DNA of 45,307 bases from an uncultured cyanobacterium (GTDB taxonomy: Bacteria > Cyanobacteriota > Cyanobacteriia > Leptolyngbyales > Leptolyngbyaceae): contig CAVYAN010000029.1 of NCBI GenBank assembly GCA_963766075.1, forward strand, positions 1 to 45,307, given 5' to 3'. Of this stretch, positions 30,001 through 36,000 are shown in pieces. Each line of letters opens with the position of its first letter. The first letter of the stretch is position 1. A program made the position numbers.

Positions 30001-33000
30001 GACAGCATCCAAGGGCACGGGATCAGGGTATTATTATTTGACAATGACTGGGGAAAAACTGTCTATGAAACTAGAACTAAACCTGTATGCCATTAATTAT
30101 CCAAAAGAAAGAAGATGTTAGCGGCTTAGCAGTTTAACCAAACAGACTAATGCCAATCCAATCATGGCAAAACGACCATTCCAAATCTCTGCTTGAGGCA
30201 TAAATCCTGTAATCCAAGCATTGCGTTTAGCTCTTGCTGCGGGGTTAGTTGGCAGTACTTGATTTTGCATAGGGCTTAATCCAAAGTTCAGTATTTTACC
30301 CACTTTCTGACTCTGCAAGCTTAGATGCAGTCGAAAATGTCGGATATTCAGATTTGAAAAATAGCTTATGGAAGCGCCATTTTCAAACATCTCAACTCAT
30401 GCTTTGAGCATATTCTGGAAAAACCATATGCTTTACCACCAAATACGATTACCATTCTCATCTATGCGAGCCAACCTAATCAAATCAGAGATTTTTTTAG
30501 CCTCTTTAACATGATGAAACGCTTGTTGGGTACCATCCGGCATATTAAACACAAAGTAAGTGGGTACAACAATGTGTTCACCCGTAATATCCGGTGCATC
30601 GACGGCTACTTGCTTTGCTTTTTCTTCAAGTGTTTTTGAAGGATCAATGCGATCGCCCGGATTAATCGTAGGACTTGCGTCCAATCGATGCATTTCCTCT
30701 ATTTGAGCTTTTTTCTGAACCTGATCAACATCTTCAGGCTTCAAAGGCTGTCGGGTTTCTTTAAACTCAGGATTGGGAACTATGTTTTTGCGATTCATGC
30801 TTAATTCTTTGAATTCATTTTTCCCATCTTAGTAGTAACCCAATGATTAAGCATCCTCCAAAAGAGTTAATCATCAGGATGTAACTAGCGGGGTTGCCAC
30901 AGCGCTGTTTTATTCTAAATCTCCACATTTTGTGAATATACGAGAATAAGCCGTTCTAGGCTTCAGGAATTTGAGCCTTCGATGGCTGCAACCGCCTGAA
31001 CGGGTTGCCTAAAGCTAGAAAAAACCCTGACTAAACATGAGGTGTCTTGGGCGATCGCTTTTGATTAAATCCCTTTTTTATAAAAGAGATTTAAATCGAT
31101 AAAAAGCTTCCATCGTATTCTCATAGTGCAGTCAATGATTTAATCAGTTCCGCAGACAGATCGGGTTTTAGTTCATGGCGTTTTCTAAACAGAACGCCTG
31201 CCAGAATGTAAATATTTTGAGAGTAGAAAGCTTTTCCATGCTTGCGAAGTTGGGCGATTCTCCACTTCACCTTGGGTTCAGAACTGTAGTATCCAAAACT
31301 CATTGGAGATGTAATAAAATCATCCACTTGATAGCCTTGATTAATTGCATACTCAATGGTCCCAACTGGATCAGAATAGGCGGAAATCATTAGCATAGCG
31401 CTCTCGTAACCCACCGCTAGAAGCTGCTTTGTGATGGCCGAGCCATCAGTTCCCCCATGCAAGTCGGGGATGTACAGATCATTATTGATTGCTGGTAGAT
31501 AAGGTGGATTAGCAATCAAGTAAGTTTCCTTAGATTGGTCGCCTTGCTCAAAATCCCCTTGCTCAAAAAAGGACGTGTTGTGAATCACGTATTTATGGCT
31601 AAGGCGATGATATTCAATTCGCGATCGAGCAACTTCACATGCTTTAGAATTCAATTCATAGCCATTAATTAGGCCATTAAATTGATTCTTTAATAAGCTA
31701 TTGATCACCGGGCTGCCTTCACCTGAGCCAAACTCCACAATAGCAGTGGAATCTTTACAGATATTCAATACCATTCGGTCTAAGCATTGAGAGTAAAATA
31801 GGGATTCTTCAGGGCAAAAGAAAACTTCTTGACGACCCTGATCCGATGGATTGAGTCTAACAACGGGTTGAGGATGCGATAAAGATTGTGTCATGTCACG
31901 CTCATCGATTACGGGTTAGGCGATTACTGTTTGGTAAATATCCATTCCACACTTTTAACTGGGGCTTGCTTAAAAGCCATTGTCAAGGCATCATCGCTTT
32001 CACATTTCAGTTGCGATAAATGGGCGGAATCGACATTCACTGGTACATTAATCTGTTTCAAAGGGTCAAGGATGGAGTTAAATGTCGATTTTCTACCTGA
32101 TGGATATTGTAGCGCTGCTGGTCGATAAGGGGCAATTTCCAAGACTCTGGCCATCTTCAGGGACTTGCTGCTGGGCCAGAATTAGGGATAGACGATGGCA
32201 TTAAGTGCATAACTAGTGCATAAACTGACAGCTGCGTTCGCATCATCCTGTGTCACACCCTATCCCTGTCGCCACTGCTCTTGATTCTGTACTTGAGTCT
32301 CTAAAAAAATGTGCGAATTTTGGAGAGATTTTTATTATTCTGACCCAGAAAAAGCATGCATAGAGGTCAATAAGGCACCCACCGACTACTGCGATAACGC
32401 GAATCCTCAATGTGCTTTTTGAGCGCGTTTAACGATTCGTCAGGCGACGATTTTGAGAGGGTAAAGTTGTTTAGGGGTGCGCCACTTTCAGTTAAGTGAC
32501 TCCCTTTCCATTCTTTCTCTAGATCATCATGATGCGAAATTGCAGCCAACGTTTCGTGAAGGAGATCGGGAGCATTCGTCCGGTGCCAGTGCCCGCCAAT
32601 TGGGCTGCAAGTAGTGCATGGGCGCGATGGTAGATCACATCGCATCCATCTTGAGTCAGATTGATGATCATAGATTTTATCTGATTAAGAGCGGGAACGT
32701 TGAATAAGTGCAATAACGGCAGCCGCAGCGCGATCGCCGATCAATTTTTCTTGGTCGTAGCCGAGGACTAATTCCCAAGCCTGATCGGGATACTGCTCGG
32801 CCAACGGGAAGGCAACCTCTGTGAGCATCCACTGCCCATGGCGTTCATCTTCCCGGATGTGCAATTCCCAATAGCCCATGGCAGCCTCGGAAAGGTGTAA
32901 GCGTTCTGCGGCCATTCGGTAGTCTGTGTAAATGGCTGGCCCAGCGATTTCAAAATACGTCAAGCCACCGTTGTAGCGCAGAAAATGGCGTCTGCGTTCA

Positions 33001-36000
33001 GTCAATAAGAAGTTGTGGTTGATGCTAGCCAAGACTTGCCAGGGTACCTGGTCGAAATAGGCTTCTGGCTCCGTCTTGAGACCTAATTCCGCCATCATCT
33101 GGGCAAAGAACGTGGAGTGCTTGCGCGCCAGCCGACCATTGCCATATTCTTCCAGCAATACCCGAATTAAGGTGGCTTGAATTTCGTTACTGGCACCGCC
33201 CAAAATGCGAGAAAGGCGACTCGCTTCAACGAGGCCATCCAAGGAGGCGATCGCTAAGAGCAATCGATAGCCCTCCAAGCTCATGTCTTCTCGTAGATAG
33301 CGTTTTGTCTTCGATATCGGCGGATTTAAGTCTAGATCAGCACGTTCCTGCAAAGCGGGTTTAACCCCTAAATTCTGGATTTTTTCAACCTCCAGTTGGG
33401 TCAATTCCCAAGCCTGCCAGACCGACTCAATGCGATCGCGGACCCCCGCCACGTAAAAAGATCGCTCATTGGTATATTCTTCTAGAGCGTCGTACCAAAA
33501 TAAATTCAGCCGATTAATCCGATACAGCAACCGCTGTAAAAATTGGTTGGCTGGCTCAATCTGTGGATTTTCAGTGTACGCCTCGCTTAAGGCCAAGGCG
33601 AGACAGGCTTCAAAACTACTGATTAGTTCAGGATATTTTTTGACCTGCATGTCTAAATCTTCCAACATGAGCAATGCATTGAATTGCTGTTCTGCCTCTT
33701 CATAGCTGTAGTGTGGATCACCAGAACGGATCACTCCAGGCAATGAAGTATCGAGTCGGGTCTGAATTAGCATGGTCCATTACCAGGTTTTGGAGAACAG
33801 AGTTATGAATGGCACTTTGGTAATAAGCGCGTTTATAGGGCATGCACCGTCAAGTCTTTAACGGCTGGGCCATCCAGCACTGCACCATCGCAGTCGAAAC
33901 GGGAACCGTGACACGGGCAATCCCAACTTTTTTCAGCACTGTTCCAGGCCACAATGCAGCCCAAGTGAGGACACACCGCAGAAACAGCGTGAACTGCGCC
34001 CTGCTCATCCCGATAGGCCGCTAGCTTTTCTCCTTCTATCGTCACGAGCTTGCCTTCACCTACGCCCACATCGGAAAAGTCTGGCGTAGCCAATCCTTTC
34101 AGGCGATCGCCCACCCAATGCATCCCCACGCTCACCGTTTGCTGAACGCCGCCGGGAGTCATAAACGGGGTCGCCCGCGTTGCGTCATACAAAGCAGCCC
34201 AAGGATTCTCGATGCCCAAGATTGAATCTGAGAGTAGCATTCCAGACAAGGTTCCGTTCGTCATCCCCCACAGGCTAAACCCAGTAGCCACAAAAACATG
34301 ATGGCTAAACGGCGTAAGCTTACCAATGTAGGGCAGTTGGTCAAAGGACACCATATCCTGGGTTGACCAGCGATAGTCAAACGTATCTAAGCCAAAACGC
34401 GCCCGCGCAAAGTCCTCGACCTTTTGGTATTGGGCTTCAGTATCAGTAACCTCGCCCACCTTATGCCCGCCGCCCCCGACGAGCAACAGTAGCCCATCGC
34501 GATCAGGCGTTGTCCGAATCGAGAAATAGCCCTGGCCACTGCCAATAAACATGCCTTCGGGAGCGCGATCAGGATCAATACGTGCCCCAACCATATAAGA
34601 CCGCTTGGGATGGGTTTTAGCGAAAAACAGGCCACTGTCCAAAATAGGCAGATGGGTTGTGATCACAACATCCTGGGCAGTCACGGTATGGCTATCCGTG
34701 ATCACACGGGAAGCAGTTGCTTCTTCATGCACTTTTAAGACGCGGGTCTCTTCAAACACAGCACTGCCATCACCTTGAATACACTGGGCTAAATGCAGTA
34801 AGTATTTGCGAGGATGAAATTGGGCTTGATGATCGAACCGGACCGCTCCCGCAATCGCAAAGGGCAACGACGTCTCCTGCACAAAGCTAGCGGGCAATCC
34901 CAGTTCAAGAGCGGCAGCCACCTCCGCCTCGATTTTTTTCAACCCCGATTCCGACTCCGTAAACGTATAGGCACTGCGACGGCTAAAGTCACAGTCAATC
35001 TTCTCCTCCTGCACAAAGTTAGCGATCCGTTCTAGGGCAGCCTGATTGGATTCGGCATAGACTCGCGCTTTGTTGGAGCCCAGATTGTGGAGCAGATCCG
35101 CGTAAATCAATTGATGCAGAGAGGTAACTTTAGCGGTTGTATGACCGCTTGCGCCTGTGACGATTTTTCTGGATTCAAGCACAGCTACTGTTTTGCCTGC
35201 TCTTTTCAGCAGCATGGCAGCCGTAAGCCCCGCAATGCCACCACCAACAATGGCCACATCGACAACAACATCCTGCGTCAGGCGGGGAAACTTCGTTTCG
35301 GGAGTTGAGTCAATCCAAAAGGAAATGGGTTTCCCCGTTAAAGCATGCATGGGTATTTTCGAGGGATTGAGATAGGACAACTAAGATGGGGTAATTGAGA
35401 TTCGGTTTAGCCTCACTTAATCGCGATCGGCATAGCCAACTTTAGGATGACGAAAACCAGCAACCGATCCGATTAAAGCCGCACCCAAGCCAAAGAGAGA
35501 CCCCAGCACAAACGACCAACTGACTTTGGCAGCATTGCCTGCTAAATCGCGGGTTTGTTGGGCTGTGATACTAGGAACATTGCTGGGAATAGTTTGAGGC
35601 GTTGTGGTGCCGGGAACATTTCCTGGAGCCGCAGTCCCAGGGATGACTTGCGGGGCCTGATTGATCAAGCTGCCCGCGTTAGCCGCCGCCACACCAAAGG
35701 CTCCGGTCACACCACTGGACAGCAACCAAGCGCTCAGCGTCAACATGGATGCCCACAAAATCGCCCCATTCAATAGCGTTATATTCCGGCTGATGCGGCC
35801 AGAGGTCCGGGCGACGATCCAACCGCCTACAAACAGTGACACTAGTAAACTAATGATGGCCCGAATACCAATGTTGATGCCCACACCAAGGAGCTTCAGA
35901 ACGCGGGGCCTCCGAGCCGCCGATGCTGGACAGTCCGATCGCCGCACCCAAGGCACTCAAGACGAGCTGCGTGCTCAAGGCGACTACCAGTCCCGCCACA

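What a model noticed while it worked through the whole genome (the two positions that open the first line are those of the whole stretch)
31121..33773. RohS/SznF-like diiron N-oxygenase paired with a HemK-type N-methyltransferase in cyanobacteria
A heme-oxygenase-like diiron enzyme without a cupin domain (g01185) and an NPPY-motif methyltransferase (g01183) form an obligate two-gene unit in about a fifth of cyanobacteria. The pairing mirrors SznE/SznF and predicts an N-methylated, N-oxidised small metabolite not yet known from cyanobacteria.
Evidence so far: 12 of 60 class genomes hold the methyltransferase and in 12 of 12 the HDO ortholog (55-68%) is the adjacent gene; 0 of the 48 genomes lacking it hold the HDO ortholog. 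Closest solved relatives are RohS (E 5e-16) and SznF (E 1e-9), with the E/E/H/E/H/H iron ligands aligned. The methyltransferase has 987 relatives and an invariant NPPY motif, closest to HemK. No paper found.
(Added by a program. Inside this text positions count along the whole contig: contig position 1 is position 1 of the stretch shown here. "Call 12" and the like, gene names such as g00115 and contig names such as C1 are that model's own, and its searches are not shown. The text may have been shortened before it was handed on; [...] marks where a part breaks off. The agent that wrote the report below was given it as the finding of a first reader that could run no searches.)

Follow-up and report, generated by a model that had tools for sequence, protein, structure and literature searches.

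The report
Diiron oxygenase–methyltransferase pair in cyanobacteria
Many cyanobacteria, some other bacteria too, keep an iron enzyme that probably adds oxygen to nitrogen beside an enzyme that adds a methyl group to nitrogen, which points to an unidentified small molecule that may help cells survive stress such as drying.

Summary
The pair is real. In 301 genomes of the phylum the same 39 hold orthologs of both genes, almost always adjacent; 71 of 80 further methyltransferase loci have the oxygenase within 1.2 kb, one fusion protein exists, and 4 of 5 genomes of a gammaproteobacterial order carry it. The oxygenase is SznF/RohS-like: seven iron ligands are invariant, including the seventh glutamate, plus the SznF pocket aspartate. 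The methyltransferase is not SznE-like: it folds like HemK2/Mtq2 and shares an insertion with the HemK2 enzymes that flank a different HDO clade in Streptomyces stress loci (a trio this scan noted before on other DNA). No third gene, transporter or cluster travels with the pair; carriers are enriched in Mn-catalase and trehalose synthesis. Dependence is one-way: the methyltransferase also occurs without this oxygenase nearby in soil actinobacteria, and in green algae. Best reading (0.45): a two-step N-methylation/N-hydroxylation of a primary metabolite with a planar nitrogen, serving stress protection. The second copy is a fold-back artefact; the DUF3891 gene is a true pseudogene here.

The parts
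32685..33773 (-). Heme-oxygenase-like diiron enzyme (HDO), 362 aa, 3-His/4-carboxylate type: E183, E209, H219, E275, H305, D309, H312; pocket D179; no cupin domain
   Evidence: PF14518; ligands invariant in 42 of 42 and aligned ungapped to SznF E189/E215/H225/E281/H311/D315/H318 and D185; fold closest to HrmI Z 32.9, SznF 28.0, RohS 26.9
31121..31894 (-). HemK2/Mtq2-type class I N-methyltransferase, 257 aa, EFGxGxG SAM motif, NPPY at 129-132, FG-helix insertion before the last strand
   Evidence: model pLDDT 91; best folds N6AMT1/KMT9 Z 18.6 and Mtq2 17.9, ahead of PrmC 16.5
31891..32671 (-). DUF3891 pseudogene between the two, its end overlapping the methyltransferase start; several lesions are shared by both arms, others are arm-specific noise
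   Evidence: PF13030 pieces; alignment with the intact 245-aa gene of L149
33833..35380 (-). FAD-dependent oxidoreductase with C-terminal Rieske domain, 59 bp upstream of the HDO on the same strand; occasional companion and candidate electron donor
   Evidence: PF01266 + PF00355; within reach of the pair in 6 of 106 loci, in cyanobacteria and gammaproteobacteria
38099..45286 (+). Mirror arm of a fold-back (assembly or amplification artefact) holding the second, partly frameshifted copy of the unit
   Evidence: 3 other contigs of this assembly also have self-inverted repeats over 1 kb (one search lists C7, C8, C62, C77)

Best explanation
A self-contained two-enzyme pathway. The HemK2-type enzyme uses SAM to methylate a planar, conjugated nitrogen (carboxamide, urea/carbamoyl, amidine or cyclic guanidine, or an exocyclic amine of a heteroaromatic ring) on a metabolite that the cell already makes; the SznF/RohS-type diiron enzyme, which should form its peroxo-diiron species without substrate because it carries the seventh glutamate, N-hydroxylates the same molecule, held by D179. 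The order is open. Electrons come from general carriers or, where present, the FAD-Rieske neighbour. The product (an N-methyl, N-hydroxy amide, urea or guanidine) stays in the cell and serves general-stress or desiccation protection as a metal chelator or radical sink. Shown: linkage, fusion, ligand set, folds, absence of a conserved third gene. Inferred: chemistry of each enzyme, a shared substrate, the stress role.
For: Same 39 of 301 genomes hold both genes; adjacency survives inversion (52 tandem, 19 convergent of 71); one in-frame HDO-methyltransferase fusion, P0392. Seven ligands invariant, D179 in 41 of 42; the seventh Glu marks heteroatom oxygenases (PMC7848743; PMC13133933); top four folds are HrmI, SznF, RohS, FlcD. 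NPP[FY] enzymes act on planar conjugated amines, PsiM being the stated exception (PMC10978996); small-molecule or peptide N-methyltransferases AerE, PsiM and Asc-Orf2 are among the fold neighbours. No third conserved gene in 26 + 75 loci, so the substrate should be a primary metabolite. Carriers hold Mn-catalase in 36 of 38 against 25 of 262, and treY in 29 of 38 against 19 of 262; within family f7, treY 8 of 11 against 3 of 26. Scattered neighbours include Mn-catalase, a ferritin-like protein, TspO, ChaB, hemerythrin. The related HemK2 + CDGSH + HDO trio lies beside SigB-type sigma, STAS, CsbD and gas-vesicle genes. An HDO (DtpC) protects dried Acinetobacter from oxidative stress (PMC13232832); an HDO/methyltransferase route makes the N-methyl-N-hydroxy metal chelator fluopsin (PMC13653836).
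Against: No substrate evidence at all. The closest folds of the methyltransferase methylate proteins (Gln of eRF1, Lys of histone H4; own knowledge). The methyltransferase family lives without this HDO nearby in actinobacteria, so it has a use of its own. Most neighbours of the pair are housekeeping or lineage-specific genes (PBP, kinases, transporters), and I ran no control for how often stress genes lie beside any gene. The marker correlation is confounded by kinship and genome size: all 11 f7 carriers are 6.2 Mb or larger, and among the 7 f7 non-carriers of that size 2 have treY (read). This genome itself gave no hit for treY or Mn-catalase (85% complete). The fusion rests on one sequence from one 2.8-kb contig. 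The stress-linked actinobacterial HDO is a different clade (Tyr at the D179 position). No shared upstream motif was found.
Confidence: 0.45

Rival explanations
1. Co-regulated stress genes without a shared small-molecule substrate: the HDO works like DtpC as an iron or reactive-oxygen sink, and the HemK2-type enzyme methylates a glutamine, asparagine or lysine of a protein or peptide (possibly the HDO itself or a translation factor).
For: Best folds are the protein methyltransferases N6AMT1/KMT9, Mtq2, PrmC and the peptide amide methyltransferase AerE; DtpC precedent with mechanism open; HDO has an invariant N196 and Q/H199 in a GGA.NE.Q loop; methyltransferase occurs with other partners.
Against: Strict two-way co-occurrence in 39 of 39 and adjacency even in convergent orientation are more than co-regulation needs; the conserved SznF pocket aspartate implies an organic substrate; no conserved small peptide gene was seen near the pair (ORFs of 50-60 aa and up only).
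Confidence: 0.22
2. A streptozotocin-like secondary metabolite: an arginine-type guanidine is N-methylated, N-hydroxylated and used as an allelochemical or NO source.
For: HDO groups with SznF-like proteins and keeps D185/E189 equivalents; SznF and RohS both act on guanidine-type nitrogens. Single loci have an agmatine/arginine deiminase-type gene beside an HDO (L065; L267).
Against: The methyltransferase is NPPY/HemK2-type, not like the enzyme found in an SznF-like cluster; no cupin, ATP-grasp, NRPS, transporter or resistance gene travels with the pair; no copy of either ortholog in the plasmid collection; whole genera carry it (11 of 11, 5 of 5).
Confidence: 0.12
3. Writer and eraser, or detoxification: the methyltransferase caps a reactive or signalling amine and the diiron enzyme oxidatively removes or degrades the methylated compound, recycling it after stress.
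For: HDOs also cleave C-C and C-N bonds (PMC13108848; FlcD is fourth); convergent arrangement in 19 of 71 loci allows separate regulation; the FAD-Rieske neighbour is related to amine oxidases.
Against: The seventh ligand is proposed to favour heteroatom oxygenation over C-H abstraction; tandem order with short gaps dominates (52 of 71).
Confidence: 0.1
4. The substrate is a nucleobase or nucleotide signal: NPPY methylates an exocyclic amine and the HDO N-hydroxylates it; in soil actinobacteria the same methyl chemistry is coupled to a GAF-TIR sensor-effector.
For: NPPY-type motifs serve adenine, cytosine and guanine amines (own knowledge; TrmM, METTL5 and METTL16 among fold neighbours); RohS oxidises an exocyclic amine of an azole; a GAF + CAP12/Pycsar-type TIR gene lies in 23 of 37 sister-clade loci.
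Against: No nucleic-acid-binding domain on the methyltransferase; no viral copy found; TIR and GAF hits are mostly under Pfam cut-offs; cyanobacterial loci show no defence-island pattern beyond a few NACHT or AAA genes.
Confidence: 0.08

Closest known systems
SznF HDO domain / SznE (streptozotocin)
   Same: Seven ligands and pocket Asp align ungapped (D179/D185, E183/E189); fold Z 28.0, rmsd 4.1, 321 residues; an N-methyltransferase partner.
   Different: No cupin domain; partner is NPPY/HemK2-type, whereas SznE is an arginine-guanidino methyltransferase and the enzyme in an SznF-like plasmid cluster lacks NPPY; no Rieske/ATP-grasp/MFS cluster.
RohS (azomycin) and HrmI (lysine N-oxygenase)
   Same: RohS is the best sequence match (E 4.7e-16) with the same DGLxEA motif; HrmI is the best fold (Z 32.9, rmsd 3.1, 331 residues) and has the same length.
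   Different: 16-21% structural identity; RohS lies in a five-gene cluster; HrmI is 3-His/3-carboxylate; neither is reported with a HemK2 partner in what I read.
Actinobacterial HemK2/MTQ2 + CDGSH + iron-containing redox enzyme trio (probably McBride cluster 1; function unknown)
   Same: HDO with seventh Glu next to an NPPY HemK2-type enzyme that shares the N-terminal motif, GxDG, and the FG-helix insertion; tandem and convergent layouts; 11 of 13 non-Rhodococcus plasmid hits have the HDO within about 1.5 kb.
   Different: HDO is another clade (about 29% identity, Tyr for D179); a CDGSH Fe-S protein is a fixed third member; SigB-type neighbourhood is explicit.
DtpC of Acinetobacter baumannii
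   Same: HDO whose iron ligands are needed for protection against desiccation-induced oxidative stress.
   Different: Co-transcribed with catalase KatE, not a methyltransferase; I could not compare sequences.
HemK2/N6AMT1/Mtq2 methyltransferases
   Same: Best fold (Z 18.6, rmsd 2.6, 184 residues), NPPY, best NCBIfam model PRK14968 (below cut-off).
   Different: 15-16% identity; extra helix insertion and C-terminal helix; no Trm112 partner or release-factor context seen.
Fluopsin pathway (FlcA methyltransferase, FlcE/FlcD)
   Same: HDO N-hydroxylation plus N-methylation gives a small metal chelator under stress control.
   Different: Five genes, two HDOs, lyases; none of these travels with the pair; FlcA not compared.

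Membership tests
HDO superfamily (PF14518) | Seven-helix heme-oxygenase-like fold | tested here: met
   PF14518 98.5 bits over cut-off 28.9; Z 24-33 to HrmI, SznF, RohS, FlcD
HDO superfamily (PF14518) | Core ligands E-x9-H, E, H-x3-D/E-x2-H | tested here: met
   E209, H219, E275, H305, D309, H312 in 42 of 42
SznF/RohS subgroup (3H/4C N-oxygenases) | Seventh ligand Glu on aux alpha2, with SznF pocket Asp four residues before | tested here: met
   E183 42 of 42, D179 41 of 42; aligned to SznF D185/E189
SznF/RohS subgroup (3H/4C N-oxygenases) | N-oxygenation activity with O2-derived oxygen | not testable with these tools
   needs an assay
SznF proper (N-nitrosating) | C-terminal cupin domain | tested here: not met
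   362 aa, only PF14518; model is all-helical
SznE-type arginine N-methyltransferase | Homology beyond the SAM motif to the methyltransferase of an SznF-type cluster | tested here: not met
   Against a stand-in (L257, Pantoea plasmid, beside HDO-cupin, Rieske, MFS, ATP-grasp): profile positions 26-91 only, 17 bits, no NPPY. SznE itself was not in hand.
HemK2/MTQ2 family (TIGR00537) | NPPY motif and HemK2-like fold | tested here: met
HemK2/MTQ2 family (TIGR00537) | Score over the curated family cut-off | tested here: not met
   TIGR00537 not hit at E 0.1; PRK14968 model 26 bits against 162; the Streptomyces relative does pass TIGR00537
HemK2/MTQ2 family (TIGR00537) | Methylation of the release-factor GGQ glutamine with Trm112 | not testable with these tools
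   needs an assay
Actinobacterial HemK2-CDGSH-HDO trio | CDGSH gene between or beside the two | tested here: not met
   no CDGSH hit among 139 neighbour proteins scanned from 26 loci or 24 recurrent neighbours
Actinobacterial HemK2-CDGSH-HDO trio | HDO in the same clade | tested here: not met
   quick tree of 21 HDOs puts the window clade with SznF-like proteins (SH-aLRT 96), midpoint root, no topology test run
Guanitoxin pathway (GntA/GntF) | YqcI/YcgG heme N-hydroxylase in a ten-gene cluster | tested here: not met
   GntA is YqcI/YcgG; the window enzyme is an HDO and no cluster is present

The most novel reading that the evidence does not exclude
The pair makes a widespread, undescribed N-methyl-N-hydroxy protectant (or NO-releasing hydroxyguanidine) that is part of the desiccation kit of soil-crust and rock cyanobacteria; a HemK2-derived small-molecule methyltransferase lineage has been coupled twice to different seventh-ligand HDO clades (cyanobacteria and actinobacteria), together covering a large unassigned part of the HDO superfamily, and green algae kept the methyltransferase, probably in the plastid.
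Probability: 0.17. Interest if true: 0.85.

Novelty: new variant of a known kind. Interest (0 to 1): 0.6.

Why it matters
Only about a dozen of more than 10,000 HDOs have a function (PMC13108848). This clade comes with a single, strictly linked partner that limits the chemistry to a planar nitrogen, so two genes in E. coli plus isotope-labelled LC-MS could name the product. It is held by about a quarter of the cyanobacterial genomes sampled, among them records named Microcoleus, Nostoc, Scytonema, Calothrix and Rivularia, and would be a new metabolite and possibly a new stress-protection mechanism in them; it would also give a lead for the actinobacterial trio and for an unstudied green-algal methyltransferase.

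Tried and rejected
Guanitoxin GntA/GntF as the match: my recollection that GntA is an HDO was wrong. A GCS2/YbdK-like ligase as third member: it lies close to the pair in 9 of 109 loci but is a core gene of family f7 (37 of 37) and nearly absent elsewhere, so rejected. DUF3891 and the FAD-Rieske gene as fixed members: 8 and 6 of 106 loci, optional at most. Upstream motif search on 21 HDO leaders found nothing convincing (best 6-mers in 7 of 21). Viral contigs: no relative. Plasmids: no match for the methyltransferase, only distant HDOs. Complex prediction of HDO with methyltransferase: no answer, score 0.00 against a mark of 0.32. Methyltransferase trees are quick trees with weak deep support; the row labelled ownPrmC is another methyltransferase of this genome, not PrmC, so that tree has no proper outgroup. 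ESM Atlas gave unnamed or generic clusters only. Literature searches that found no description of the pair; the library lacks most subscription papers. The supplement of PMC7848743 (Fig. S13, Table S2), which may list this clade among the eight seventh-ligand clusters, could not be read. Whether green algae also hold the HDO could not be searched.

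
Full report
Observation. The two genes are at the stated place on the minus strand: a 362-aa PF14518 protein (32685-33773) and a 257-aa methyltransferase (31121-31894), with a DUF3891 remnant between and an FAD-Rieske oxidoreductase 59 bp upstream. The region 30899-38089 is mirrored at 38099-45286 around a 9-nt loop, to within 21 bases of the contig end; the arms are 97.7% identical with 34 gap openings, and frameshifts fall on either arm. The DUF3891 gene has lesions shared by both arms and absent from relatives in which it is intact (L149, 245 aa), so it is a true pseudogene in this genome.

Linkage. In 301 genomes drawn evenly from the phylum, 48 match the methyltransferase at E 0.001; 39 are orthologs (52-100% identity) and 9 are weak 24-33% hits that I set aside. 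The HDO matches 39 genomes, the same 39. Of the 38 others, 37 have HDO sequence beside the methyltransferase (one truncated, one pair fragmentary) and one is split over contig ends. 37 of the 134 genomes in families f1-f30 carry the pair. A pattern scan of species genomes found 427 relatives and returned the best 80; 71 of these 80 have the HDO within 1.14 kb, 52 in tandem and 19 convergent; the 9 without are 4 cyanobacterial loci cut within 320 bp of a contig end, 4 Glycomyces and 1 Acidimicrobiia. In a small gammaproteobacterial order 4 of 5 genomes hold the methyltransferase and all 4 have the HDO directly upstream; one of the four, G307 (L158), is unpublished and may not be published without its depositors' permission, and it is also one of the two gammaproteobacterial loci with the FAD-Rieske neighbour and one of the Mn-catalase neighbours. 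A search for longer forms returned one protein among 7999 candidates, an in-frame HDO-methyltransferase fusion of 681 aa from a single contig. Kin are not independent, but strict two-way co-occurrence with patchy presence inside families (11 of 37 in f7, 2 of 18 in f8) and survival of adjacency through inversion argue for a shared function.

The oxygenase. All six core ligands and the seventh (E183) are invariant in 42 of 42 orthologs and D179 is kept in 41. They align without gaps to SznF D185, E189, E215, H225, E281, H311, D315, H318. D185 is described as the only charged side chain in the SznF pocket, and the extra Glu was proposed to mark heteroatom oxygenases (PMC7848743, passages); in RohS it is essential (PMC13133933, parts 1-3 of 7). 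The model (pLDDT 86) is closest to HrmI (Z 32.9), SznF (28.0), RohS (26.9) and FlcD (25.0), well above CADD, BesC, UndA and AetD. In a quick tree of 21 HDOs the clade groups with SznF-like proteins (SH-aLRT 96) and apart from the actinobacterial CDGSH-linked clade, which has Tyr at the D179 position. N-oxygenation is thus the best inference; it is not shown.

The methyltransferase. The model (pLDDT 91) is closest to human N6AMT1/KMT9 (Z 18.6) and Mtq2 (17.9), then TrmM, PrmC and AerE: HemK2-like, not bacterial HemK. It is not SznE-like: SznE is an arginine-guanidino methyltransferase (PMC11705231, passage), and the methyltransferase in an SznF-type plasmid cluster, used as stand-in, has no NPPY and matches only over the SAM motif, while two Streptomyces HemK2/MTQ2 proteins match over profile positions 23-199 and 41-187 of 241. 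These share the N-terminal motif, NPPY, GxDG and an FG-plus-helix insertion with the window enzyme; that the insertion is missing from archaeal and eukaryotic HemK2 is my recollection. NPP[FY] enzymes are reported to act on planar conjugated amines, with PsiM as the exception (PMC10978996, passages).

Wider family. A profile search gave 1067 representatives at E 0.001, 81 at 1e-30. Among them are chlorophyte proteins (Gonium pectorale, Pleodorina starrii, Haematococcus lacustris, Myrmecia bisecta) with N-terminal extensions that look like transit peptides by eye (no predictor run). A sister clade on high-GC soil contigs has no HDO hit in the DNA held and instead a GAF plus CAP12/Pycsar-type TIR gene in 23 of 37 loci, several of them near-identical samples or short contigs. 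Glycomyces places it at the end of an operon with a D-2-hydroxyacid dehydrogenase; no HDO ortholog was found with this query in those 4 genomes. The dependence is therefore one-way.

Context. No third gene is conserved: neighbours follow lineage (on 26 loci; on 75 loci). The FAD-Rieske gene occurs in 6 and DUF3891 in 8 of 106 loci; a ligase candidate failed the co-distribution test. This argues against a dedicated gene cluster and for a primary-metabolite substrate. Stress genes appear sporadically nearby (Mn-catalase in 4 of 75 loci, ferritin-like, TspO, ChaB, hemerythrin), without a control. Genome-wide, carriers hold Mn-catalase in 36 of 38 (others 25 of 262) and treY in 29 of 38 (others 19 of 262); within f7, treY is in 8 of 11 against 3 of 26. 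The 262 include non-photosynthetic classes, carriers are large genomes, and this 85%-complete genome gave no hit for either marker, so this is suggestive only. The actinobacterial HemK2-CDGSH-HDO trio lies beside SigB-type sigma, STAS, CsbD, YbdK and gas-vesicle genes; 11 of 13 non-Rhodococcus plasmid hits have the HDO adjacent, while 16 Rhodococcus hits gave no HDO match. DtpC is an HDO that protects dried Acinetobacter from oxidative stress by an unknown mechanism (PMC13232832, passages, part 2 of the text and the Discussion).

Mechanism. Most likely (0.45) a two-step N-methylation and N-hydroxylation of a common metabolite with an amide, urea, amidine or cyclic-guanidine nitrogen, giving a chelator or radical sink for stress survival; fluopsin is the functional precedent (PMC13653836, passages). 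Rivals: co-regulated stress proteins with a protein substrate (0.22), a streptozotocin-like secondary metabolite (0.12), a writer/eraser or detoxification cycle (0.10), a nucleotide substrate (0.08).

Novelty. Both superfamilies are known, simple seventh-ligand N-oxygenase clusters of unknown function were predicted in 2021, and cyanobacteria already have an N-methylated, N-hydroxylated metabolite made by other enzymes (PMC10673588 and PMC12866846, passages). I found no paper on this pair in six searches (PMC13108848 passages and sections 4 and 8; PMC5509433 passage, a weak algal PF14518 hit of no clear bearing). The unread supplement of PMC7848743 may list the clade. I rate it a new variant of a known kind, interest 0.6: a widespread, cheaply testable orphan pathway, less like SznE/SznF than proposed and more like a stress module.

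Noticed in passing
   Followed up: partly
P0122, P0124, P0125, P0130, P0154: Green-algal orthologs of the methyltransferase (Gonium, Pleodorina, Haematococcus, Myrmecia) with transit-peptide-like N-termini; presence of the HDO in algae untested.
   Followed up: partly
L097:4523-7777 (also L095, L096, L098): Glycomyces four-gene run: 165-aa and 349-aa proteins of no family, a D-2-hydroxyacid dehydrogenase and the methyltransferase; in L095, L096 and L098 near a restriction-helicase gene.
   Followed up: partly
P0392: 681-aa in-frame HDO-methyltransferase fusion, single sequence on one 2.8-kb contig.
   Followed up: partly
L152:1325-2425: Divergent GCS2/YbdK-like carboxylate-amine ligase, below all family cut-offs, present in 37 of 37 genomes of family f7 and almost nowhere else in the phylum sample; a candidate lineage-specific gene of unknown function.
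   Followed up: partly
L088 (G145:C77), L262 (Gloeothece verrucosa plasmid): Cyanobacteria also hold true SznF-like HDO-cupin proteins; L262 has Rieske and ATP-grasp genes beside it.
   Followed up: no
L267:5001-9059: Kitasatospora plasmid: HemK2, CDGSH, HDO, dimethylargininase, YbdK ligase and CsbD in one stretch; a hint at arginine or gamma-glutamyl chemistry for the actinobacterial trio.
   Followed up: no
window 21431-21553: 16-nt tandem repeat, about 7 units, between two genes.
   Followed up: no
window 25591-30798 and 35417-39326: The pair sits among small stress-type genes: cyanophycinase-like S51 peptidase, a 1086-aa repeat-rich membrane protein, an HLIP, low-affinity iron permease, transglycosylase-associated protein.
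   Followed up: no
G000 contigs C7, C8, C62, C77: Other self-inverted repeats over 1 kb; C62 has a 5.4-kb one reaching the contig end, so duplicated genes in this assembly should be treated with caution.
   Followed up: no
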